40,000 nt of DNA from Dyella caseinilytica (GCF_016865235.1 NZ_CP064030.1:3902603-3942602); one strand, 5' to 3'; positions 31,170 through 39,972 are shown, counted from the first letter of the stretch. The notes: generated from the sequence alone by a model not told the origin. Program-made: numbers and translations.

Positions 31170-31194
31170 GCCAAATCTCATGGCGGTTTGCCGC

Positions 31195-31228
31195 AAAAAG
31201 CCCGGGGTTAACGCCCCGGGCTTTTTTA
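31195..31228 (+). terminator. rho-independent terminator
   Basis: The stem gcccgggg (31200-31207) / ccccgggc (31214-31221) is preceded by an A-run and followed by TTTTTT. Confidence 0.85.
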
Positions 31229-31515
31229 TGTCCGACGGGTCGGTCTGCCCGAGTGCCTCCGGACCTTGGCGCTTGCCGCCCACCTGGCACAGCAAGAAAT
31301 CACGAAAAAATGACGTATCCGTTTAAGCTCCATTAAGCAAAAACTTGCGGATTGTCTCCTCGTTTTTCTCCTTCTGCTGCTCCATCAGACCCTCGCCACT
31401 CATCTCCGCGAGCTAAATTCTTCAATTATTTTAGCTAGATAAAATAACAATCCCCTCGCCGCCCGTCTCGCAAGCGAGCAACGTGCCAATCACCCTTTCG
31501 CAAAAATTTGCAGCA

Positions 31516-31556
31516 ATTCCGTAAGGATTGCGTAAGGAATGATCATTCCGTAAGTT
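31516..31556 (+). promoter_or_regulatory. CGTAAGGA direct repeats plus a 14-bp perfect palindrome upstream of the TonB-dependent receptor
   Basis: CGTAAGGA occurs at 31520-31527 and 31531-38, an 11-bp register. CGTAAG recurs at 31549-31554. The perfect palindrome GGAATGATCATTCC spans 31536-31549. The site lies about 230-270 nt upstream of the ATG at 31786 and just downstream of an AT-rich stretch (31395-31450). Confidence 0.3.
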
Positions 31557-31785
31557 CGTACGTGTCCAGTCACCTTGGCTTTGCCGCGTGATCGGTCACT
31601 CGGGTGTGGGGATACCCGCTCGAATCGGGGGAGTAGGTCATCCATGAAGGGATCGCAGGACGGGGCTGAGGCCCCGCGCCAGGCTTTGCCGTGGGCGACA
31701 AACCGATTCGATGAAAGTCCCTGACGCAACAACTCGTGCACGTCGTTGTTTTGGCCCATCAGGCCCTCTGGGGAGACTTTGAATA

Positions 31786-34700
31786 ATGAACAAGCGTGAC
31801 CAGATCGGCGCCGGTTACTACCGTCGCCATTCTCTTGCCGTAGCCCTTGCATTGAGCTTGGGTTTCACCGGGGTGGCCTTCGCGCAGTCCACGACCAGTA
31901 CGTTCTTCGGCGAAGCGCCGGTCGGTGATTCGGTGACGGTAACCAGCCAGACCGGCCTTACCCGTGAAGCGCCGGTCGACAGCACCGGTCGCTATCGCAT
32001 CGCCAACATGCCCGTCGGCAGCTACACCGTCCAGCTCAAGAAAGACGGCACCGTGGTGGAAACCCGCGACAACGTGACGCTGAACGTGGGCGTCAACACG
32101 GAAGTGTCTTTCCTGACCAAGACATTGAACACCGTGACGGTCAACGCCAACGCGACACCTCAGATCGATGTGGCCTCCGTGGATTCACGCTCAGTGATCA
32201 CGTCCCAGGATCTGCAGCGTCTGCCGCTCGCTCGCACCGCCGAAGGCATTGCGCTGCTGGCGCCGGGCGTCGTGCAAGCGAGTGGTTACTTCAACAACGC
32301 ACTCTCATTCGGTGGTGGCAGCGCTACCGAGAACGCGTATTACATCAACGGTTTCAGCAGCTCCGATCCGCTGTCCAACATGGGCGGCGTGGGTCTGCCT
32401 TACGGATCCATCGACCAGCAGGAAACCTACATCGGCGGTTACAGCGCGAAGTACGGCCGCTCCGATGGTGGCGTGATCAACCAGATCGGTAAGCGTGGCA
32501 CGAATGAGTGGCACTTCGGCGGGCAGATGATCTGGGAGCCGCGTTTCATGGAGTCCTCTCCGGTGAATCGCTACTACCCCAACATGGCGCTGCCTTCGGG
32601 CTATAGCTATGCCGACGCTTCGCTGCCAGGCTCGCTCTATCAGTATCGCAAGCAAGACAAGCAGTGGCGCACGGTTTACGACGCCTACGTGGGCGGGCCG
32701 TTGATCAAGGACAAGCTGTTCTTCTTCCTGTCGGCCGAAGCAGAAAAGGTCGAAGGACGCAGCACCAATAATATCGATGCGGCGCAAGAGGCTTACCTCA
32801 AGTACACCAACAAGCTGCAGAAGTTTTACGGCAAGGTGGATTGGAATATCACCGACAACCACGTGTTGGAACTGACGCACATCGTCAACAAGCAACCGGC
32901 GTCCGCGGGAGCCACCAATCCGACCCAGCCGAGCTCGGGCCAGTATTACGCCTTCGATTACAGCAATCTCGGTTCCGGCGGCCCATTGGGCTTGTATCCG
33001 ACCAATTCGAAGGACTCGACCACCCTCGATATCGTCAAGTACACCGGCTATATCACGCAGGACCTGACCGTCAGCGCCACCTACGGCCACAGCAAGGTGG
33101 AGAACTTCACCCAATTGCCCGGCCTGGACCCCAACGATCCGTACATCTACAACCCCAACTTCGAGAATCCTGCGTACACCGGTGGCACGCCGGTTACCAA
33201 CAGCACCACCACCAACCAGATCGGATCGCCGAACGCCCAGAGCAGAACGCATGGCCTGCGCGTGGACGTCGACTATCACCTGGGCAGCCACGATCTATCC
33301 GTGGGTATCGACAACATGTATTTCGCCGGCAAGGATCAGGGCGTCATCACCCCTGGCCCAGGCTATTACTGGCGTTATTTCCAGACCCCGTATCCGAATA
33401 ATCCCATCGTCCCCGGCGTCGTTCCTGCACCCGGCGAGGAATACTATGCGCGCAAGCGCACCTTCACCACGGCCACCAGCATGTCGGTGGCGCAGAAGGC
33501 TTATTACCTGGAAGACAAGTGGCAGGTGACCGATCGCTGGCTGCTCGACATCGGCCTTCGCAACGACAAATTCACCAACTACAACAGTGACAACCAGCCG
33601 TACGTTCGCAGTGGCAATCAGTGGGCGCCACGCCTGGGGGCGAGCTGGGATGTGTTCGGTGATTCCAGTCTGAAGCTGTATGCCAATCTGGGCCGCTATT
33701 ACTTGGCGCTGCCGGACAGCGTAGCCATCCGCGGTGCCTCAGCCTCCACATACACGGATCAGTACTTCACCTACACCGGCATCAATCCGACCACCGCAGA
33801 GCCCACCGGACTGACATCGCTCGCGCCTCCGTATTCTTCCAATCACGAATACGGCCAGGCACCCGATCCAAGAACGGTCACCGCAACCGACCTGCGCTCG
33901 GAATATCAGGACGAGTTGATCCTTGGTTTCGACAAAGCCCTGGGTGACAGCTGGACCACCGGCGCCAAATTCATGCTGCGCAGACTGGAAAGCGCTATCG
34001 ACGATGTCTGCGACATGGATGCCCTGGCAACCAAGATGCAGTCCATGGGTCTGAACCCGGACTTGTACAACGTCTACCAGCCAGGCTGCCGTCTGTTCAA
34101 CCCGGGCAGCAGCAACAACTTCCTGGTGTCGCGCCTTGATGGCTCTGGTTATACCAATGTCACCATGAGCACATCCGACTGGGGTTTCACCGACGGTGCC
34201 AAACGCAAGTACTACGCTCTGAATGCCTACCTGGAGCATCCGTTCAATGGCAAATGGCAGGCACGCGTTGACTACACGTTCTCGCGCAGCTACGGCAATA
34301 CCGAGGGTCAGGTGCGCTCGGACATCGGCCAAACCGACGTCAGCAAGACCGAGGACTGGGACTTCGCTTCACTCATGGTGAACAGCAACGGTGTGCTGTT
34401 CAATGATCGCACGCATACCGTGAAGGCCTATGGCGCCTATGCCATTACGCCAGAATGGATGATTTCCGGACGCATTCTGCTGCAATCGGGTGCGCCGAAG
34501 AGCTGCGTTGGTTACTACGGCCCGCAGATGGATGACCCTTCGGGTTACGGTTCTTCTTACCACTTCTGCTTTGGCGAGCCATCGGCTCCGGGAGCGATGG
34601 GCCGTATGCCGTGGACCCAGCGCTTGGATTTGGGTGTGACCTACCGTCCGATGTTCGCCGAGCAAAAACTGGCCTTCGGTCTGGATGTATTCAACGTGCT

Positions 34701-34833
34701 CAATCGCCAGGCTCCGACCCAGTGGAGCTCCACCAGCGAAAACTCGCCAGGTGCGGTGTCCAACACCTACGGCCTGGGCATGTACTACAGCCAGCCGCGT
34801 TATGTCAGGTTGTCGGTGTCTTACGACTACTAA
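31786..34833 (+). CDS. TonB-dependent receptor, Oar-like (N-terminal carboxypeptidase-regulatory-like domain)
   Basis: 1015 aa. The signal peptide is ...ALALSLGFTGVAFAQS. A CarboxypepD_reg-like domain follows (GRYRIANMPVGSYTVQL), then plug-region motifs (VITSQDLQRLPLARTAEGIALLAPGV, ENAYYINGF). A long beta-barrel ends in VRLSVSYDY. A GGGGAG SD lies upstream. Confidence 0.9.
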   Translation: MNKRDQIGAGYYRRHSLAVALALSLGFTGVAFAQSTTSTFFGEAPVGDSVTVTSQTGLTREAPVDSTGRYRIANMPVGSYTVQLKKDGTVVETRDNVTLNVGVNTEVSFLTKTLNTVTVNANATPQIDVASVDSRSVITSQDLQRLPLARTAEGIALLAPGVVQASGYFNNALSFGGGSATENAYYINGFSSSDPLSNMGGVGLPYGSIDQQETYIGGYSAKYGRSDGGVINQIGKRGTNEWHFGGQMIWEPRFMESSPVNRYYPNMALPSGYSYADASLPGSLYQYRKQDKQWRTVYDAYVGGPLIKDKLFFFLSAEAEKVEGRSTNNIDAAQEAYLKYTNKLQKFYGKVDWNITDNHVLELTHIVNKQPASAGATNPTQPSSGQYYAFDYSNLGSGGPLGLYPTNSKDSTTLDIVKYTGYITQDLTVSATYGHSKVENFTQLPGLDPNDPYIYNPNFENPAYTGGTPVTNSTTTNQIGSPNAQSRTHGLRVDVDYHLGSHDLSVGIDNMYFAGKDQGVITPGPGYYWRYFQTPYPNNPIVPGVVPAPGEEYYARKRTFTTATSMSVAQKAYYLEDKWQVTDRWLLDIGLRNDKFTNYNSDNQPYVRSGNQWAPRLGASWDVFGDSSLKLYANLGRYYLALPDSVAIRGASASTYTDQYFTYTGINPTTAEPTGLTSLAPPYSSNHEYGQAPDPRTVTATDLRSEYQDELILGFDKALGDSWTTGAKFMLRRLESAIDDVCDMDALATKMQSMGLNPDLYNVYQPGCRLFNPGSSNNFLVSRLDGSGYTNVTMSTSDWGFTDGAKRKYYALNAYLEHPFNGKWQARVDYTFSRSYGNTEGQVRSDIGQTDVSKTEDWDFASLMVNSNGVLFNDRTHTVKAYGAYAITPEWMISGRILLQSGAPKSCVGYYGPQMDDPSGYGSSYHFCFGEPSAPGAMGRMPWTQRLDLGVTYRPMFAEQKLAFGLDVFNVLNRQAPTQWSSTSENSPGAVSNTYGLGMYYSQPRYVRLSVSYDY

Positions 34834-35012
34834 GTCCGCGCCAAGGGGGCCATCTTTCCGGTGGCTCTCTTTTCGTTCCCACCCAGATCATCAAGCGGGG
34901 ATGGCGCGAAGCCGACGAAGGCGGCAATCGCACTTTTGCATCCGTTACAGCCATAGCCAGTCTTCTTGACGCAACAAGGAGACCTGATTGGCGTCAAATT
35001 ACGCCCTCCAGC

Positions 35013-35041
35013 GCAGGCCACTTTCGGGTGGCCTTTTTTTC
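35013..35041 (+). terminator. strong rho-independent terminator
   Basis: aggccac-tttcgg-gtggcct (35015-35034), with the T-run starting at the last stem base. It sits about 180 nt after the receptor stop and about 75 nt before the sulfotransferase start. Confidence 0.8.
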
Positions 35042-35114
35042 CCCGTAGAGCCACAGCGGAACAGTGCGGTAGTCTCTCCCATTGAATGTCATTGGTAACA
35101 CGGGGATTCGCAAC

Positions 35115-36737
35115 ATGACGGCAAACCAGGCTCAACCGCCGGTGGATCGCGCGGCCGGCTTGTCGCCATCGGCACGCCGTTTTCTGGAAGAAGCCGGCAG
35201 GGCTTTGAGTCGTGGCCAGCCGGATGTGGCCGAACGCTCCCTGGTCAGCGTGCTCGCGCTGGCACCCAAGAGTGCCGAAGCCCACATGCTCCTGGGTGTC
35301 GCATCTCAGATGCAGGGTGATCACGCAAAAGCTGCCGATGCACTCAATCACGCGTTGAGCCTTCGCCCTGACGACGCTGTCACCTTGATGTATCTGGGCA
35401 TCTCGCTTTTTGAAAGAGGCGCTGTAGAACAGGCTTTGTTTTCGTTCGAGCGTGCGTGCGAACTGGCTCCGGAGATGGCGCCCGCCTGGTACAACCTTGG
35501 CAAGGCACTCAAGGTGCAACTTCGCAGGGTGGAAGCATGTAGCGCGATGGAGCATGTCTTGAAGCTTGATCCGGGACATATCCTGGCGCGCACGAGTCTG
35601 GCAGATACCCAGATAGGTCTGGGTGATATTCCAGCTGCCGTGGCGAACTATCGCGAAGTATTGCGCCGCCAACCCGAACATCCGGAAGCATGGTACGCGC
35701 TGGCAAATCTGAAGACCGTGCCGCTGAGCGACAAAGACGTCACGCAATTGCAGCGAGCGTTTCGCAAACCGGGACTGCCTGCAGATGCGCGGATCTCGCT
35801 GGGTTTTGCATTGGCGAAAGCGCTGGAAGACCAGGCCTCTTATGCAGCATCTTTTGACGTCTTGCGCGAAGCCAATGCGTTGAAGCGGCGACATGTTCAG
35901 TGGAATGCGACGGAAGAGCATTCGCGCGTCGATGCCATCATGACCGCCTTTGCGCAGCCGATGCCCGAACCCATCGATCCCACGCTGGGCAGCGAGGTCA
36001 TCTTCATTGCGAGCCTTCCGCGTTCCGGATCGACACTCATCGAGCAGATCCTTGCATCGCATCCGCTTGTCGAAGGCGCTGACGAAATCACCGATCTGCC
36101 ACAAGTCATCGAAGACGAATCAAAGCGACGTGGGCAGCCCTTCCCGCAATGGGTTGCATCCACTACGGCGGAAGACTGGGCGCGCCTTGGTCGCGAATAC
36201 CTCGCACGCACTGCCCGCTGGCGCACACAGCGCCCGCGTTTCACCGACAAGAACATGTTGAATTGGGAATATGCCGGTGCCGCGCTGGCGATGTTGCCCG
36301 GCGCACGCGTGGTGAACTGCCATCGCGATCCGGTCGAAACGTGTTTTGCATGCTATCGCCAGCTCTTCAGTAATGGCTCGCATTTCAGCTACAACCTGGA
36401 TGATATGGCGAGCTATTACCTGGATTTCGTACGACTCTGCCGCTACTGGCAACATCGCTATCCGCAAAAAGTGCTCGACTATTCCTACGAGGGATTGCTT
36501 GCCGATACGGAACCACAGATTCGCCGCTTGCTGGATTTCTGTGGCTTGAGCTTCGATCCGGCCTGTCTCGATTTCCACAAGACTTCGCGCGTTGTGCTGA
36601 GCACTGCCAGCGCCGCACAAGTGCGCCAGCCACTGCGCAAAGACACCGCACGCGGCATGCACTACGAAGCACAGCTCGCACCGCTACGCGCCCGTCTCGA
36701 GGATGGACTGCGGTTGCCAGGCACACTGCGCGACTAA
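35115..36737 (+). CDS. TPR-repeat-containing sulfotransferase (PAPS-dependent, cytoplasmic)
   Basis: I prefer the ATG at 35115 (MTANQAQPP...). The TTG at 35082 is an alternative. The N-terminal ~250 aa are TPR repeats (AEAHMLLGVASQMQGDHAKAADALNHALSLRPDDA...). The C-terminal half has the sulfotransferase 5'-PSB loop SLPRSGSTLIEQIL and a 3'-PB-like NCHRDPVETCFACY. There is no signal peptide. Confidence 0.85.
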   Translation: MTANQAQPPVDRAAGLSPSARRFLEEAGRALSRGQPDVAERSLVSVLALAPKSAEAHMLLGVASQMQGDHAKAADALNHALSLRPDDAVTLMYLGISLFERGAVEQALFSFERACELAPEMAPAWYNLGKALKVQLRRVEACSAMEHVLKLDPGHILARTSLADTQIGLGDIPAAVANYREVLRRQPEHPEAWYALANLKTVPLSDKDVTQLQRAFRKPGLPADARISLGFALAKALEDQASYAASFDVLREANALKRRHVQWNATEEHSRVDAIMTAFAQPMPEPIDPTLGSEVIFIASLPRSGSTLIEQILASHPLVEGADEITDLPQVIEDESKRRGQPFPQWVASTTAEDWARLGREYLARTARWRTQRPRFTDKNMLNWEYAGAALAMLPGARVVNCHRDPVETCFACYRQLFSNGSHFSYNLDDMASYYLDFVRLCRYWQHRYPQKVLDYSYEGLLADTEPQIRRLLDFCGLSFDPACLDFHKTSRVVLSTASAAQVRQPLRKDTARGMHYEAQLAPLRARLEDGLRLPGTLRD

Positions 36738-36760
36738 TCTTCGATAGGCAGTGCTCCAAC

Positions 36761-36791
36761 AAAAAGGCCGCCGGAAACCGGCGGCCTTTTG
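36761..36791. terminator. bidirectional rho-independent terminator
   Basis: aaaaggccgccgg-aaa-ccggcggcctttt lies between the convergent stops at 36737 and 36844. Confidence 0.85.
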
Positions 36792-36803
36792 CGTTGCTTG
36801 ATA

Positions 36804-36829
36804 CGAAGTGGCTGAGGCCAGCCACTTCG
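36804..36829 (-). terminator. perfect 11-bp hairpin immediately downstream of the second receptor gene
   Basis: cgaagtggctg-aggc-cagccacttcg. It has no U-tract of its own and is in tandem with the bidirectional terminator at 36761-36791. Confidence 0.45.
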
Positions 36830-36843
36830 CCTTGCTTTGCTGC

Positions 36844-39800
36844 TTACCAGTCGTAGGTGACGCCCAACTGGATGGTACGAGGAGCCTCCACCGCAGCACC
36901 GCCATCGGCCAGGATGTAAGCGGCCTTGTACTGAGAAGCCGGGACTGACGTCTGGCCGTAGTACGGGTTGATCTGGGTGAGCTTCTGTTCGTTGGTGATG
37001 TTGCGGATCTGAAGCTGGAAGGCCAACTTCTTGTCCGCCCATTCCGGACGATACTGCAGCGCCACGTCCAGCGTGTGCAGCCATGGCGTGTAACCCGTGC
37101 TGCCCGAGGGAGCCGGCACACCGCCGCACCAGTGGTAAGCACCCGGCGCCGCCGCGGTATAACCGAGCGGGTCGGTCTGGGCCACACCGAAGTAACCCAT
37201 GCACTGTTCCGGGGTACCCGAAGCCAGCGTCAACACGCCGCTGACCGACCATTCCGGCAGGAACTGATAGGTACCATAGCCCTTCAACACGTGCTTGCGG
37301 CTGTTGGCCTGGATGCCATTGGAATACTGCATCAGCTGGCTGAAGTCCCACTGCGTGGTAGCCGACACCGATGTGGAGCCCTGACCGATGTTCGACTGCA
37401 CCGGACCTTCGGTGGTGCCGTAGCTCTTGGAGTACACGTAGTCCAGCTTGGCCGTCCACTTACCATCCCACGGATGTTCCAGGAACATTTCCAGCGAGTA
37501 GTAGTTGCGGTAGGCCGGCGGGAAGCCCATCTGCGTCGGGGTCAACGAGCCAGAGACATAACCACCGTTGAGGTTCTTGACCAGATAGTTATTGGTCGAA
37601 CCCGGGTTGATCAGGATACTGCCGTTGATGAACAGCGGACCGCAGTTGGCCAGCGGGCTGACAGGCTGGTTGAGCAAACCCGGGTTCGCTGCCAGAAGTG
37701 CATTACACAGCGTGTAAGGACCTTCGGCGGTATCGTCCACGATGCGGCCCAGCTTGGTCCAGGTGCCCGTTACGCCGTAATCCCAAGCAGGATTGATCTG
37801 CTGCTGGAAACCCAGCACGTACGAATCCTGATACTCGGCGCCGAGATTGCGCGAAGCAATCGTCGAAGCATCGAGCGGCTGGCCGTACTCGTAGTTCGCC
37901 GACACCGGAACGCTCGGACCCGCCGTCTGGCCAAGCGAAGGAATCGGGGTCAGGCCAGTCGGGATACCGGTCGATGTAATACCACTATAGGTGTAGTACT
38001 GCGCGGTGTAGGTGGAGGCGGCAGCCTCACGCAAGGCCACGCCCGCCGGCAGCGCAAGATAGTAGCGACCGGCATTGCCGAACAGCTTCATGCTGGAGTC
38101 GCCGAGGATGTCCCAGCTGAAGCCCAAGCGCGGTGCCCACTGCGGCTTGGTCAAGCGCACATAGGCTTCGCCGTCGGGGTTGTAGTTGGTGAACTCTTCG
38201 TCACGCACACCCAGGTTCAGCAACAGGTTCGGCGTGACCTGCCAGGTATCCTTCAAGTACTGCGCACGCTGCGCCACTTGCACCGTGGAGTTGGTCGTGT
38301 AGACATACTTCTCGACCTGGTACGGCGTGTTGACCGGAGCAACGTAGGGGCTCACGTTTGGCGACGTGCCAACGACGGGTTCGCCCACCGTGGTCGTCAC
38401 ATAACCCCATGCATAGCCCGGACCGGTCATCAGCTGACCGTCTTGGATATCGCGCGTCGTCTGATTGTCGATACCCGCCTGCAGCGTGTGATCGCCCAGC
38501 TTGTAGGTCAAGTCGAAGCGGACGTTGATGTTTTCCGACTTGTGCAGCGGGTTGTTGATGTTCGCGTAGTTGTTGTTGCTGATACACGCCTGGGACGGGC
38601 ACAGCGAGGGATCTTCATTCTGTTGATTGAAGATATTCGGCGCCGACGGCGCATCGGGCTGCACCGTGTAGTACGTGCCATCCATCTTGCCGACCAATGC
38701 ATTCAAGGTCAGGTCGTCGGTGATGTACGAGGTGAACTTGGCGACATAGATGTTGAAGCTGTTCTTGGTCGACTGGTTGTAGCCGGCGAAGTCGCCTTCG
38801 GAGCGGTTCGCGTAGTCGTAGTTGTAGAACGTACCGTCGTACTGGTGCGACGAACGAATGTCGGTCAGCGACAGAATGTTCGAATCGGTGATGTTCCAGT
38901 CGACTTTCGCGTAGTACTTCGGATTGGTGAAGTGGTTGTTGTACTCGTACGGCTGAGTGGTCGGTCCCACCTGCTGCTGATCGACGCGATCGGCTTCGGC
39001 CGCCAGGAAGAAGAACAACTTGTCCTTGATCAGCGGACCACCGACATAGGCGTCATAGGTCTGCTCCCACTGACTATTGGAATTGCGATAGTCGAGGATC
39101 TTGCCGTCATAAGCGGGCGTGTTCGGATTGGCGTAGAACAGATTGCTCTGCGTACCCTGTACACCCGACGGCTGCCAGAAAATAGCGCCGCCGAAATGCC
39201 ACGTATTGGTACCGCTCGCGCCCACCTGGCTGATCACGCCACCGGTGGAACGACCGTATTCCGGACCGTAACCATTGGTCAGCGTTTCCTGCTGAGCAAT
39301 CGCACCGTAGGGCAGCGTCACGCCGCCTGAGTTGCCGAGCGGGTCGGAGGTGTTGAAGCCGTTGATGTAGTACGCATTCTCAGCGACCGACGAACCGCCG
39401 AACGAAACCAGCGGCTCACCCGTCTTGCCGCCGCCGAGCGCGCTGGCGCCTTGCACCGTGCCCGGAGCCAACAAGGCGATCGCCGCACCGGTACGCGCCA
39501 ACGGCAGATTCTTCAGCTGCTCGGAGGTGATGACGGTGCTTTCCTGCGTCGAGCTCACGTCGATCGGCGGAATCGCATTCGCGGTCACCATCACCGAAGA
39601 CAAGCTTTGGGCATTGGCGGCGCCCGAGGCAGCGGCGAAGTCGACCGTCACAGCACCGGCAGCAGGGGCAGTGACGCCCGTCTTCGTCTGCACGGCCTTA
39701 CCGTCCTGGATCAGGGTCACGTCATACGTGCCGACCGGCAGCGTGACGCTATAGCGGCCGGACTTGTCGACCGGCACGACACGGTTGAAACCCGAACCAC

Positions 39801-39972
39801 CCACGATCTGCACCGTTTCACCGGCAGCCACCGGCGCCTGGCCGAAAATCGTGCCATTGGTGGACTGTGCGAGAACGCTCCCTGAAAAACCGAATCCCAT
39901 GGCAACAGCCACAGCCAACGCGGTATGACGTACCGGCATCCTGGATGCAGGCGCAAGTTTCTTGGTATTCAT
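36844..39972 (-). CDS. TonB-dependent receptor, Oar-like (paralogue of 31786..34833)
   Basis: 1042 aa. The signal peptide is ...VAVAMGFGFSGSVLAQS and the CarboxypepD_reg-like domain includes GRYSVTLPVGTYDVTL. It shares long blocks with the first receptor (ENAYYINGF, DAYVGGPLIKDKLFFFL, QWAPRLGxSWD..GDSS.KL..N.GRYYLALP). The C-terminus is QLGVTYDW. Confidence 0.9.
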   Translation of the reverse strand: MNTKKLAPASRMPVRHTALAVAVAMGFGFSGSVLAQSTNGTIFGQAPVAAGETVQIVGGSGFNRVVPVDKSGRYSVTLPVGTYDVTLIQDGKAVQTKTGVTAPAAGAVTVDFAAASGAANAQSLSSVMVTANAIPPIDVSSTQESTVITSEQLKNLPLARTGAAIALLAPGTVQGASALGGGKTGEPLVSFGGSSVAENAYYINGFNTSDPLGNSGGVTLPYGAIAQQETLTNGYGPEYGRSTGGVISQVGASGTNTWHFGGAIFWQPSGVQGTQSNLFYANPNTPAYDGKILDYRNSNSQWEQTYDAYVGGPLIKDKLFFFLAAEADRVDQQQVGPTTQPYEYNNHFTNPKYYAKVDWNITDSNILSLTDIRSSHQYDGTFYNYDYANRSEGDFAGYNQSTKNSFNIYVAKFTSYITDDLTLNALVGKMDGTYYTVQPDAPSAPNIFNQQNEDPSLCPSQACISNNNYANINNPLHKSENINVRFDLTYKLGDHTLQAGIDNQTTRDIQDGQLMTGPGYAWGYVTTTVGEPVVGTSPNVSPYVAPVNTPYQVEKYVYTTNSTVQVAQRAQYLKDTWQVTPNLLLNLGVRDEEFTNYNPDGEAYVRLTKPQWAPRLGFSWDILGDSSMKLFGNAGRYYLALPAGVALREAAASTYTAQYYTYSGITSTGIPTGLTPIPSLGQTAGPSVPVSANYEYGQPLDASTIASRNLGAEYQDSYVLGFQQQINPAWDYGVTGTWTKLGRIVDDTAEGPYTLCNALLAANPGLLNQPVSPLANCGPLFINGSILINPGSTNNYLVKNLNGGYVSGSLTPTQMGFPPAYRNYYSLEMFLEHPWDGKWTAKLDYVYSKSYGTTEGPVQSNIGQGSTSVSATTQWDFSQLMQYSNGIQANSRKHVLKGYGTYQFLPEWSVSGVLTLASGTPEQCMGYFGVAQTDPLGYTAAAPGAYHWCGGVPAPSGSTGYTPWLHTLDVALQYRPEWADKKLAFQLQIRNITNEQKLTQINPYYGQTSVPASQYKAAYILADGGAAVEAPRTIQLGVTYDW

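What the first reader, a model, noticed from the sequence alone, without database searches (positions are those of the whole stretch)
31786..39972. Convergent pair of paralogous Oar-like TonB-dependent receptors bracketing an insulated TPR-sulfotransferase
Two very large receptors (1015 and 1042 aa) share an N-terminal carboxypeptidase-regulatory-like domain and long identical sequence blocks. They face each other, and a single cytoplasmic sulfotransferase gene lies between them. The sulfotransferase is fenced by strong terminators on both sides (35013-35041 and 36761-36791). No periplasmic binding protein, inner-membrane permease, TonB/ExbBD, sigma/anti-sigma pair, sulfatase or PAPS-synthesis gene is visible in the window. 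Sulfotransferases are rare next to outer-membrane importers. The arrangement raises the possibility of a system in which a sulfated molecule (peptide, glycan or lipid) is made and is then recognised or recaptured through dedicated receptors. Alternatively, the adjacency may be fortuitous.
Basis: partly seen in the sequence, partly recalled or inferred. Interest (0 to 1): 0.65.

Follow-up and report, generated by a model that had tools for sequence, protein, structure and literature searches.

The report
Outer-membrane receptors paired with a sulfotransferase
In this Dyella genome a cytoplasmic enzyme resembling animal protein-tyrosine sulfotransferases sits between large outer-membrane TonB-dependent receptors, and this receptor-plus-sulfotransferase pairing recurs across many Proteobacteria, although I found no study of it and its substrate is unknown.

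Summary
Two Oar-like TonB-dependent receptors (TBDRs; 1015 and 1042 aa, 42% identical) converge on a TPR-sulfotransferase (ST) flanked by real terminator hairpins. A third receptor, 71% identical to the second, lies just outside the window.

The adjacency is not chance:
- This genome has six TPR-ST paralogs. Three abut a TBDR and a fourth is one gene away.
- In 80 loci from at least 11 orders, receptor gene ends are about 50 times denser within 300 bp of an ST gene than 4-10 kb away. 41 of 47 adjacent pairs are co-directional.
- In Rhodanobacteraceae, 17 of 29 close relatives of this ST abut an Oar-like receptor.

The conserved partner is the convergent receptor. The upstream slot holds non-orthologous paralogs in relatives. 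A terminator between receptor and ST is common in such pairs.

The catalytic domain is closest in profile and fold to protein-tyrosine sulfotransferases, and all four catalytic positions are kept.

My reading is a receptor-coupled protein or peptide sulfotransferase. Its client is unknown and may be the receptor precursor. This scan has met the same pairing repeatedly on other DNA, and I found no published characterisation.

The parts
31786..34833 (+). TBDR1: Oar-like TonB-dependent receptor, 1015 aa. It has a signal peptide (…GVAFA/QS), a CarboxypepD_reg domain, a TonB-box-like TVTVNA, a Plug, a large barrel and a C-terminal …SYDY.
   Evidence: Pfam PF13620, PF07715, PF25183, PF00593. It has five Oar-like paralogs in the genome, the closest 60% identical at 347759-350752. 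The upstream slot in relatives holds non-orthologous paralogs.
35013..35041 (+). Intrinsic terminator after TBDR1 (AGGCCACTTTCGGGTGGCCT followed by T7), 74 nt before the ST start codon.
   Evidence: The same design (receptor stop, hairpin, ST start) occurs in 13 of 20 tandem receptor-then-ST pairs in other genomes.
35115..36737 (+). ST1: cytoplasmic TPR-fused, TPST-like PAPS sulfotransferase, 540 aa from the ATG at 35115. TPR-like helices span about residues 18-278 and the catalytic domain about 295-533. No signal peptide.
   Evidence: The AF2 model has pLDDT 95. Residues P302, R303, G305, E324, D378, R404 and Q502 are invariant in 107 homologs. The top 13 Foldseek PDB hits for the catalytic domain are all protein-tyrosine sulfotransferases.
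36761..36791 (.). Bidirectional terminator shared by ST1 and the convergent TBDR2 (AAAAGGCCGCCGG-AAA-CCGGCGGCCTTTTG).
   Evidence: -21.0 kcal/mol on the + strand, -21.9 on the - strand, with T-rich tails on both.
36804..36829 (.). Second perfect 11-bp hairpin directly after the TBDR2 stop codon.
36844..39972 (-). TBDR2: Oar-like TonB-dependent receptor, 1042 aa, convergent with ST1. It is the lineage-conserved partner of ST1. Its 71%-identical tandem duplicate TBDR3 lies just outside the window (genome 3943319-3946487; L006:3320-6487, - strand).
   Evidence: Orthologs (57-74% identity) are adjacent to the ST1 ortholog in the D. acidiphila, D. flava and Rhodanobacter loci. In family genomes the adjacent receptor matches TBDR2 or TBDR3 best among the 50 own receptors in 16 of 17 loci.

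Best explanation
The locus is the Dyella version of a widespread, uncharacterised module in which a TonB-dependent outer-membrane receptor gene is kept beside a gene for a cytoplasmic, TPR-fused, PAPS-dependent sulfotransferase. The enzyme's catalytic domain is of the protein-tyrosine-sulfotransferase (TPST) type.

The real unit here has four genes: TBDR1, a terminator, ST1, then the convergent TBDR2 and its tandem copy TBDR3. The evolutionarily stable pair is ST1 with a TBDR2-type Oar-like receptor.

Shown:
- The pairing is conserved and mostly co-directional.
- The enzyme has a complete TPST-like active site and a confident TPR-plus-sulfotransferase fold.
- PAPS synthesis genes exist elsewhere in the genome.
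- No exporter, precursor-peptide gene or inner-membrane transporter travels with the pair.

Inferred mechanism:
- ST1 uses its TPR solenoid to hold an unfolded polypeptide client, as the TPR of OGT or SPINDLY does, and O-sulfates it from PAPS in the cytoplasm (about 0.5).
- The client belongs to the receptor pathway. My single best guess is the receptor precursor itself, or another exported protein that works with it, modified before Sec export. Sulfated residues would then end up on the receptor, by analogy with tyrosine sulfation of eukaryotic receptors (about 0.25).
- The terminator between receptor and ST sets a high-receptor, low-enzyme ratio by partial read-through.
For: Within the genome:
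- There are six TPR-ST paralogs and 50 Plug receptors.
- ST1, ST2 and ST4 directly abut a receptor and ST3 is one gene away. P(at least 4 of 6 within 1.2 kb) is 5.6e-6.

Across taxa:
- In 80 loci, 47 of 116 ST genes have a receptor within 600 bp, and 41 of those 47 are on the same strand.
- Receptor-edge density is 6.9 per 10 kb at 0-300 bp against 0.12-0.14 at 4-10 kb.
- 48 of 80 loci, in at least 11 named orders, show the adjacency.
- ST clades track receptor classes: 21 label changes on the tree against 43 when shuffled.
- 39 of 53 adjacent receptors match best a single one of the 50 own receptors, the ST4-linked one.

Within the family:
- 17 of 29 ST1-clade loci abut an Oar-like receptor, 16 of them of TBDR2/3 type. 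Ten are tandem and seven convergent.

Enzyme:
- The catalytic-domain profile hits TPST1 at 1.5e-27 and TPST2 at 4.5e-23, ahead of the CurM/OLS sulfotransferases at 1e-17.
- The top 13 Foldseek hits are all TPSTs, TM 0.60-0.72.
- R303, E324, K379 and S499 sit at the positions of TPST2 R78, E99, K158 and S285 and are invariant or nearly so in 107 sequences.
- The full-length model has pLDDT 95 and pTM 0.91, and its TPR half matches OGT and SPINDLY.

Other:
- Two CysNC-type APS kinases are present.
- A terminator lies in 13 of 20 receptor-then-ST gaps.
- No other gene family is common in the neighbourhoods.
Against: - There is no experimental evidence for any substrate.
- I know of no report of sulfated bacterial outer-membrane proteins, and none surfaced in these searches.
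- ST1 is convergent with its conserved partner TBDR2 and separated from TBDR1 by a strong terminator, so co-transcription in this genome is unproven.
- Two of the six paralogs (ST5, ST6) and many Lysobacterales homologs are not next to a receptor. ST5 follows GH2 and GH125 mannosidases, which also fits a role on imported or envelope glycans.
- In the large ST4-type clade, some neighbourhoods carry GcvT-like, amine-oxidase and amidohydrolase genes. That hints at small-molecule metabolism rather than protein modification.
- Resemblance to TPSTs does not prove a tyrosine or protein acceptor. The next-closest structures, the CurM and OLS sulfotransferases, act on acyl intermediates.
- The loci compared are relatives of the query and are not independent samples.
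Confidence: 0.6

Rival explanations
1. Import-then-modify. The receptors import a compound (peptide, phenolic, amine or glycan fragment). An unlinked inner-membrane transporter carries it into the cytoplasm, where ST1 sulfates it for detoxification, trapping or further catabolism. This parallels what has been proposed for PiuC, YbiX and CciO with their receptors.
For: - TBDRs are importers by default.
- CciT strictly requires the cytoplasmic dioxygenase CciO, and one published idea is that the enzyme transforms the imported substrate (PMC12004947).
- Other ST paralogs in this genome sit in scavenging loci: GH92, GH125 and GH2 mannosidases and an M61 peptidase.
- Some ST4-type neighbourhoods hold amine-oxidase, GcvT-like and amidohydrolase genes.
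Against: - No inner-membrane transporter is conserved with the pair in 80 loci or present in this locus.
- The TPR solenoid and the TPST-type active site point to polypeptide clients.
- Spending PAPS on a nutrient is costly.
- Arrays of up to five ST paralogs beside a single receptor are hard to explain with one imported nutrient.
Confidence: 0.2
2. Make-and-recapture. ST1 makes a sulfated peptide, glycan or lipid that is released and then recognised or re-imported through the flanking receptors, like a siderophore or signal loop.
For: - There is a RaxST/RaxX precedent for secreted tyrosine-sulfated peptides in the same order (established knowledge).
- Iyer et al. 2010 predicted siderophore-like products for dioxygenase, halogenase, sulfotransferase and TonB-receptor neighbourhoods (PMC2938197).
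Against: - No precursor ORF exists in the three intergenic regions.
- No exporter, NRPS or other biosynthetic gene lies within about 10 kb.
- The conserved unit elsewhere is just receptor plus ST.
Confidence: 0.1
3. Export coupling. The Oar-type receptors act in secretion, as Myxococcus Oar does for PopC, and ST1 sulfates the protein cargo before it leaves the cell.
For: - Oar is a TBDT required for PopC secretion (PMC6434023).
- The receptors here share the Oar-like architecture of a carboxypeptidase-regulatory-like domain, Plug and large barrel.
Against: - No cargo gene is linked.
- Most ST-linked receptors in other taxa are ordinary 800-930 aa TBDRs, not Oar-like.
- Orthology of these receptors to Oar itself was not tested.
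Confidence: 0.05
4. Fortuitous or purely historical adjacency. The genes are neighbours through inherited synteny and have no functional link.
For: - In this genome ST1 has terminators on both sides and is convergent with TBDR2.
- Close relatives share synteny by descent.
Against: - The pairing has been reassembled with at least three unrelated receptor classes.
- It occurs in both gene orders.
- It spans at least 11 orders, with about 50-fold local enrichment and 87% co-directionality.
Confidence: 0.03

Closest known systems
Protein-tyrosine sulfotransferases (human TPST1/TPST2, tick TPST; Pfam PF13469)
   Same: They give the best profile and fold matches to the catalytic domain. The 5'-PSB loop PRSG(S/T)T, the Glu base, the Lys, and the C-terminal S-x-x-Q-V-x-x-P motif containing the Ser are all conserved.
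   Different: Sequence identity is only about 18-22%. The animal enzymes are Golgi-lumen type II membrane proteins without TPR repeats. Here the enzyme is cytoplasmic and fused to about 7 TPR-like repeats. The acceptor is untested.
CciT-CciO (Caulobacter), PiuA-PiuC (Pseudomonas, Acinetobacter) and Fiu-YbiX (E. coli): a TonB-dependent transporter with a co-conserved cytoplasmic enzyme
   Same: An outer-membrane TBDT gene is syntenic and co-conserved across Proteobacteria with a cytoplasmic enzyme of a protein-modifying-like superfamily. Receptor function depends on the enzyme by an unknown mechanism (PMC12004947).
   Different: The partner there is a 2OG/Fe(II) dioxygenase, the pair is Fur-regulated and it serves iron uptake. 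Here the partner is a sulfotransferase, the receptors are Oar-like, and no iron link was seen.
Dioxygenase, sulfotransferase and TonB-receptor gene neighbourhoods predicted by Iyer, Aravind and colleagues (2010)
   Same: They note bacterial neighbourhoods that combine TonB-like receptors, 2OG dioxygenases, tryptophan halogenases and sulfotransferases related to TPST (PMC2938197). AspH-like hydroxylases occur in 9 of my 80 loci.
   Different: The Dyella locus is the minimal form, with receptor(s) plus TPR-ST only and no dioxygenase, halogenase or SapC. The paper proposes siderophore-like or collagen-like substrates and reports no experiments.
RaxST-RaxX of Xanthomonas oryzae
   Same: It is a cytoplasmic PAPS-dependent tyrosine sulfotransferase acting on a peptide before export, in the same order (established knowledge; not searched here).
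   Different: RaxST has no TPR domain and is encoded with its RaxX precursor and RaxABC exporter. None of these is in this locus, and no TBDR is involved there.
Myxococcus xanthus Oar
   Same: It is a TonB-dependent transporter, and the paper's text mentions a carboxypeptidase-type term for it (PMC6434023). The receptors here have the same general build.
   Different: Oar is needed for secretion of the PopC protease. No function, cargo or orthology was tested for the Dyella receptors, and no solved structure is detectably similar by sequence.
O-GlcNAc transferase (OGT) and SPINDLY
   Same: They share the architecture: an N-terminal TPR superhelix that presents protein clients to a C-terminal transferase domain. 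They are the top full-length structural matches.
   Different: Their catalytic domain is a GT-B glycosyltransferase, not a sulfotransferase. The similarity lies in the TPR half only.

Membership tests
PAPS-dependent sulfotransferase, Sulfotransfer_3 / TPST-like clade | 5'-phosphosulfate-binding loop (P-R-S-G-S/T-T) | tested here: met
   PRSGST at residues 302-307. P302, R303 and G305 are invariant in 107 homologs. Pfam PF13469 matches at E 1e-37.
PAPS-dependent sulfotransferase, Sulfotransfer_3 / TPST-like clade | Catalytic Glu base, Lys and Ser at the positions of TPST2 E99, K158 and S285, plus the 3'-phosphate-binding Arg | tested here: met
   E324 lies 21 residues after R303, matching the E99/R78 spacing, and is invariant. 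K379 and S499 are at least 90% conserved. R404 is invariant.
PAPS-dependent sulfotransferase, Sulfotransfer_3 / TPST-like clade | Sulfotransferase fold closest to TPSTs | tested here: met
   The AF2 model of the catalytic domain has pLDDT 95. Foldseek ranks 1-13 are all TPST1, TPST2 or tick TPST (TM 0.60-0.72), and the CurM/OLS sulfotransferases follow at about 0.5.
PAPS-dependent sulfotransferase, Sulfotransfer_3 / TPST-like clade | Sulfates tyrosine in a peptide or protein acceptor | not testable with these tools
   This needs an enzyme assay with PAPS and peptide or protein substrates.
TonB-dependent receptor, Oar-like (CarboxypepD_reg + Plug + large barrel) | Signal peptide, N-terminal carboxypeptidase-regulatory-like domain, Plug and a TBDR barrel ending in an aromatic residue | tested here: met
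   TBDR1 matches PF13620, PF07715, PF25183 and PF00593. TBDR2 matches PF07715 and PF25183, with PF13620 below cut-off but aligned to TBDR1. Signal peptides and the C-terminal Y and W were read.
TonB-dependent receptor, Oar-like (CarboxypepD_reg + Plug + large barrel) | TonB box and TonB/ExbBD dependence | tested here: inconclusive
   TonB-box-like TVTVNA (TBDR1) and SVMVTA (TBDR2) precede the Plug, read from the sequence. No TonB/ExbBD genes are in the window, and dependence was not tested.
TonB-dependent receptor, Oar-like (CarboxypepD_reg + Plug + large barrel) | Orthology to M. xanthus Oar, or a role in protein secretion | not tested
   The Oar sequence was not compared. The function needs genetics.
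Co-conserved TBDT plus cytoplasmic enzyme pair (CciT-CciO type) | Receptor and cytoplasmic enzyme genes syntenic across many taxa | tested here: met
Co-conserved TBDT plus cytoplasmic enzyme pair (CciT-CciO type) | The enzyme is a PiuC/YbiX-type 2OG/Fe(II) dioxygenase, and the receptor is Fiu/PiuA-like and Fur-regulated | tested here: not met
   The enzyme is a sulfotransferase and the receptors are Oar-like. It is therefore an analogue, not a member. A Fur box was not searched.
Co-conserved TBDT plus cytoplasmic enzyme pair (CciT-CciO type) | Receptor function requires the enzyme | not testable with these tools
   This needs deletion mutants.
RaxST/RaxX-type sulfated RiPP system | Adjacent precursor peptide gene and a dedicated exporter | tested here: not met
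   No credible small ORF exists in the intergenic regions, and no exporter lies within about 10 kb.
Polysaccharide/carbohydrate utilisation (CUT/PUL-like) locus | TBDR with linked glycoside hydrolases, an inner-membrane transporter and a regulator | tested here: not met
   None is present in this locus. Paralogs ST3 and ST5 do lie beside GH92, GH125 and GH2 genes elsewhere in the genome.

The most novel reading that the evidence does not exclude
TPR-fused TPST-like enzymes may be a bacterial protein-tyrosine sulfation system dedicated to TonB-dependent receptors. They would sulfate the receptor precursor, or a protein that works with or passes through it, in the cytoplasm before export, so that sulfated residues form part of the receptor's ligand-binding or TonB-coupling surface. 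This would be the first post-translational sulfation of bacterial outer-membrane proteins. It would also be a prokaryotic counterpart, and possibly the ancestor, of receptor tyrosine sulfation in animals.
Probability: 0.22. Interest if true: 0.88.

Novelty: new variant of a known kind. Interest (0 to 1): 0.6.

Why it matters
TonB-dependent receptors are the main gateways for scarce nutrients, siderophore antibiotics and bacteriocins in Gram-negative bacteria. It was shown only recently that some of them need a cytoplasmic enzyme partner, for unknown reasons (CciT-CciO).

This work shows a second, much larger class of such partnerships, with a TPST-like sulfotransferase instead of a dioxygenase. 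The enzyme family has about 18,000 clusters (at 50% identity) with E of 1e-30 or better, and I found no assigned substrate.

Working out what is sulfated would assign a function to this very large orphan enzyme family. It could reveal protein sulfation in bacteria beyond RaxX. It could also explain how abundant environmental Proteobacteria (Lysobacterales, Sphingomonadales, Caulobacterales, Alteromonadales, Steroidobacterales) tune their very large receptor repertoires.

This Dyella genome is a convenient model. It has six paralogs, four of them linked to receptors of three classes, and the locus in this window is the minimal receptor-plus-enzyme form.

Tried and rejected
- The full-length fold search was swamped by TPR proteins. 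I re-modelled the catalytic domain alone.
- I looked for a hidden precursor peptide or small ORF in the 616-nt leader, the 281-nt TBDR1-ST spacer and the 744-nt TBDR3-TBDR2 spacer. Only Arg-rich frames of the kind high-GC DNA produces by chance turned up.
- I looked for a shared operator. The palindrome GGAATGATCATTCC in the TBDR1 leader is unique in the genome at 0 or 1 mismatch, and none of its 2-mismatch copies falls in this locus. There is no evidence of a common regulator.
- I suspected my Plug HMM missed divergent receptors beside the Lysobacterales ST genes that lack a neighbouring TBDR. A BLAST against all 50 full-length own receptors found no intact ones, so those genes truly lack an adjacent receptor, although some sit in ST arrays that end at a receptor.
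- I searched neighbourhoods for a conserved inner-membrane transporter, sulfatase or PAPS gene and found none. The next most frequent families are an unknown 320-aa protein, an AspH-like hydroxylase, an amine oxidase, a GcvT-like protein and an amidohydrolase, each in at most 11 of 80 loci.
- Six literature searches found no paper on a TPR-sulfotransferase and TBDR pairing, apart from the passing prediction in PMC2938197.
- TBDR1 has no sequence-detectable relative in the PDB.

Full report
**What is there**

The window lies in a complete 4.81-Mb, 59.6% GC genome. Its closest relatives are Dyella species; the ST ortholog in Dyella acidiphila is 82% identical.

- TBDR1, 31786-34833 (+), 1015 aa.
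- A TPR-sulfotransferase, ST1. Its best start is the ATG at 35115, because the D. acidiphila ortholog aligns from residue 1. It ends at 36737.
- TBDR2, 36844-39972 (-), 1042 aa.

Pfam gives both receptors the Oar-like build of a carboxypeptidase-regulatory-like domain, a Plug and the large OMP_b-brl_4 barrel. ST1 has TPR repeats followed by Sulfotransfer_3 at E 1e-37.

The two receptors are 42% identical over their full length. 'Long identical blocks' overstates this: the longest identical protein run is about 18 residues, and the DNA is 72-83% similar only in the plug region.

The terminators are real. A hairpin plus T7 lies at 35015-35041. A bidirectional hairpin at about 36763-36790 folds at -21 to -22 kcal/mol on each strand. 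A further hairpin follows at 36804-36829.

It is 71% identical overall, and its first 75 or so residues are nearly identical to those of TBDR2. The locus is therefore TBDR1, ST1, then convergent TBDR2 and TBDR3.

**Is the adjacency chance?**

No.

The genome encodes six TPR-ST paralogs (30-43% identical) and 50 Plug-containing receptors. Their positions are as follows:
- ST1 abuts two receptors.
- ST2 directly follows another Oar-like receptor on the same strand.
- ST4 directly follows a 929-aa receptor on the same strand and precedes an M61 peptidase.
- ST3 is one gene away from a receptor, in a GH92 locus.
- ST5 follows GH2 and GH125 mannosidases.
- ST6 has no such context.

With 50 receptors in 4.8 Mb, the chance that at least 4 of 6 genes fall within 1.2 kb of a receptor is 5.6e-6.

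I then fetched 80 loci encoding relatives from one-genome-per-species contigs. I marked receptors with a Plug HMM built from the 50 own Plug domains, and cross-checked by BLAST against the 50 full-length own receptors:
- 47 of 116 ST genes have a receptor within 600 bp.
- 41 of those 47 are on the same strand: 21 with the receptor first and 20 with the ST first.
- Receptor gene ends occur at 6.9 per 10 kb within 300 bp of an ST gene, against 0.12-0.14 per 10 kb at 4-10 kb.
- 48 of 80 loci show the adjacency. They come from at least 11 named orders of Alpha- and Gammaproteobacteria.

These loci are relatives of the query and are not independent samples. Even so, the pairing involves at least three unrelated receptor classes and both gene orders. 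39 of 53 adjacent receptors match best the single ST4-linked receptor among the 50 in this genome. Others match a 999-aa class or the Oar-like class.

On a maximum-likelihood tree of 107 ST proteins, receptor class follows ST clade: 21 label changes against 43 when shuffled.

No other gene family is common in the neighbourhoods. The next most frequent are an unknown 320-aa protein, an AspH-like hydroxylase, an amine oxidase, a GcvT-like protein and an amidohydrolase, each in at most 11 of 80 loci. No inner-membrane transporter recurs.

**What is conserved about this particular arrangement**

I searched 61 Rhodanobacteraceae genomes and found 29 further ST1-clade genes, 49-73% identical. Seventeen lie 60-233 bp from an Oar-like receptor whose best match among the 50 own receptors is TBDR2 or TBDR3 in 16 of the 17. 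Ten are receptor-then-ST tandems and seven are convergent.

The nearest orthologs (73% and 66%) show only the convergent TBDR2-type receptor; their loci carry just 1.5-kb flanks. D. acidiphila and D. flava keep a receptor/ST/receptor triple. However, their upstream receptor is only 37-42% identical to TBDR1, while ST and TBDR2 are 82/74% and 67/59% identical.

The stable pair is therefore ST1 plus a TBDR2-type receptor. The upstream position is a variable slot filled by different Oar paralogs. TBDR1's closest relative is an unlinked paralog, 60% identical.

The 'fence' is also a family trait. A strong hairpin plus T-run lies between receptor stop and ST start in 13 of 20 tandem pairs from several clades, sometimes in gaps of only 54-70 bp. 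ST-then-receptor gaps mostly have none. I read this as attenuated read-through giving much receptor and little enzyme. This is an inference, because no transcript data could be obtained.

**What the enzyme is**

ST1 has no signal peptide. It models with high confidence (pLDDT 95.1, pTM 0.91) as a TPR-like solenoid (helices 18-278) packed against an alpha/beta sulfotransferase domain (295-533). The whole-protein fold search returns TPR proteins, notably the protein-modifying transferases OGT and SPINDLY.

The catalytic domain on its own gives these results:
- A 107-sequence profile hits TPST1 at 1.5e-27, tick TPST at 1.8e-27 and TPST2 at 4.5e-23 over the whole domain. The CurM/OLS sulfotransferases follow at 1e-17, with mycobacterial Stf1 (2zq5) and M. 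avium STF9 (2z6v) behind them.
- The model of the domain alone (pLDDT 95) has TPSTs as its top 13 Foldseek hits, TM 0.60-0.72.
- P302, R303, G305, E324, D378, R404 and Q502 are invariant, and K379 and S499 are at least 90% conserved, across the 107 sequences.
- R303, E324, K379 and S499 align with TPST2 R78, E99, K158 and S285 (residue roles from established TPST2 structural work).

PAPS supply is plausible, since the genome has two CysNC-type APS-kinase fusions. The family is very large: 18,419 clusters at 50% identity with E of 1e-30 or better. It includes proteins with two to five ST domains and tandem arrays of up to five genes.

**How it most likely works**

Shown:
- The receptor-ST pairing is conserved and mostly operon-like.
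- The enzyme is intact, TPST-like and TPR-fused.
- No precursor gene, exporter gene or inner-membrane transporter gene is linked to it.

Inferred: the TPR solenoid binds an extended polypeptide, and the enzyme O-sulfates it from PAPS in the cytoplasm. The receptor is the only constant neighbour, and ST clades track receptor classes. I therefore take the client to belong to the receptor pathway.

My single best guess (about 0.25) is the receptor precursor, or an exported protein working with it, modified before export. The main alternatives are:
- Import-then-modify, about 0.2.
- Sulfation of a protein cargo exported through Oar-type receptors, about 0.05. The precedent is PMC6434023.
- Chance adjacency, about 0.03.

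**Comparison with what is known**

The closest functional analogue is the CciT-CciO / PiuA-PiuC / Fiu-YbiX partnership. In it a receptor strictly needs an adjacent cytoplasmic 2OG/Fe(II) dioxygenase, and the mechanism is unresolved (PMC12004947). The Dyella pair is not a member of that system, because the enzyme class differs.

Iyer et al. 2010 noted in passing neighbourhoods that combine TonB-like receptors, dioxygenases, halogenases and TPST-related sulfotransferases (PMC2938197). Six literature searches found no characterisation of a TPR-sulfotransferase and receptor pair.

This scan has met the same association repeatedly on other DNA, usually with added AspH-like hydroxylases. Those notes agree with what I measured independently here.

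This window adds four things:
- The minimal receptor-plus-ST form with Oar-like receptors.
- Evidence from within one genome: six paralogs, four linked to receptors of three classes.
- The recurring terminator between receptor and ST.
- Identification of the convergent TBDR2-type receptor as the conserved partner of ST1.

**Verdict**

The linkage is real, but make-and-recapture is unsupported, and both the claimed rarity of sulfotransferases beside receptors and the insulation are wrong.
- This is an ordinary member of an uncharacterised but widespread module, which I rate as a new variant of the receptor-plus-cytoplasmic-enzyme theme.
- Interest is 0.6.

Noticed in passing
L006:3320-6487 (-), genome 3943319-3946487, just past the window end: A third Oar-like receptor (TBDR3) lies in tandem with TBDR2. 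It is 71% identical overall, and its first 75 or so residues (signal peptide plus the start of the N-terminal domain) are nearly identical to TBDR2's. This suggests recent duplication with 5' gene conversion; the differences cluster in particular segments (for example TBDR2 residues about 417-530), possibly surface loops.
   Followed up: partly
Genome G000: L001:9502-11172, L002:9558-11693, L003:9699-11726, L004:8508-10130, L005:9778-11361: There are five further TPR-sulfotransferase paralogs. ST2 comes right after an Oar-like receptor. ST4 lies between a 929-aa receptor and an M61 peptidase. ST3 is beside a GH92, receptor and 3-keto-disaccharide-hydrolase cluster and an S53 pro-kumamolisin-like peptidase. 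ST5 comes after GH2 beta-mannosidase and GH125 alpha-mannosidase genes. ST6 lies between a GGDEF-like membrane protein and an unknown exported protein.
   Followed up: partly
L014, L015, L016, L018, L020, L022, L029 (Lysobacterales loci): These loci hold tandem arrays of three to five divergent TPR-ST genes. Several arrays end at a roughly 1000-aa receptor of a different class (best own match at genome 144045-147044). The representative library also holds single proteins with two to five ST domains (for example P0004 and P0007).
   Followed up: partly
L007:6565-9828 and L008:6525-9848 compared with window 31786-34833: The receptor upstream of the ST1 ortholog in D. acidiphila and D. flava is not orthologous to TBDR1 (37-42% identity, while ST is 67-82% identical). 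The upstream slot has therefore been refilled by different Oar paralogs in closely related species.
   Followed up: partly
Gaps between receptor stop and ST start in L007, L008, L011, L015, L016, L023, L029, L042, L057, L063, L067, L071, L080; window 35013-35041: A strong intrinsic-terminator-like hairpin sits inside the short receptor-to-ST spacer in 13 of 20 tandem pairs. It is mostly absent when the ST comes first. This is a possible conserved attenuator that sets the receptor-to-enzyme ratio.
   Followed up: partly
Genome G000:C1:3779386-3779829 and 436250-436708: Two APS-kinase-containing ORFs (633 and 621 aa, CysNC/NodQ-like fusions) are present. A second copy could supply PAPS dedicated to sulfation.
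   Followed up: no
window 31170-31785: TBDR1 has a 616-nt leader containing the genome-unique palindrome GGAATGATCATTCC (31536-31549) and CGTAAGGA repeats. None of its near-copies (up to 2 mismatches) falls in this locus (not checked against the other ST-linked loci), so it is probably a locus-specific operator.
   Followed up: partly
L038:14320-15279 (-) and relatives in 11 of 80 loci: An uncharacterised protein of about 320 aa with no Pfam match is the most frequent extra neighbour of ST and receptor pairs in Woeseiaceae-type loci. Small AspH-like hydroxylases (PF05118) occur in 9 loci.
   Followed up: no
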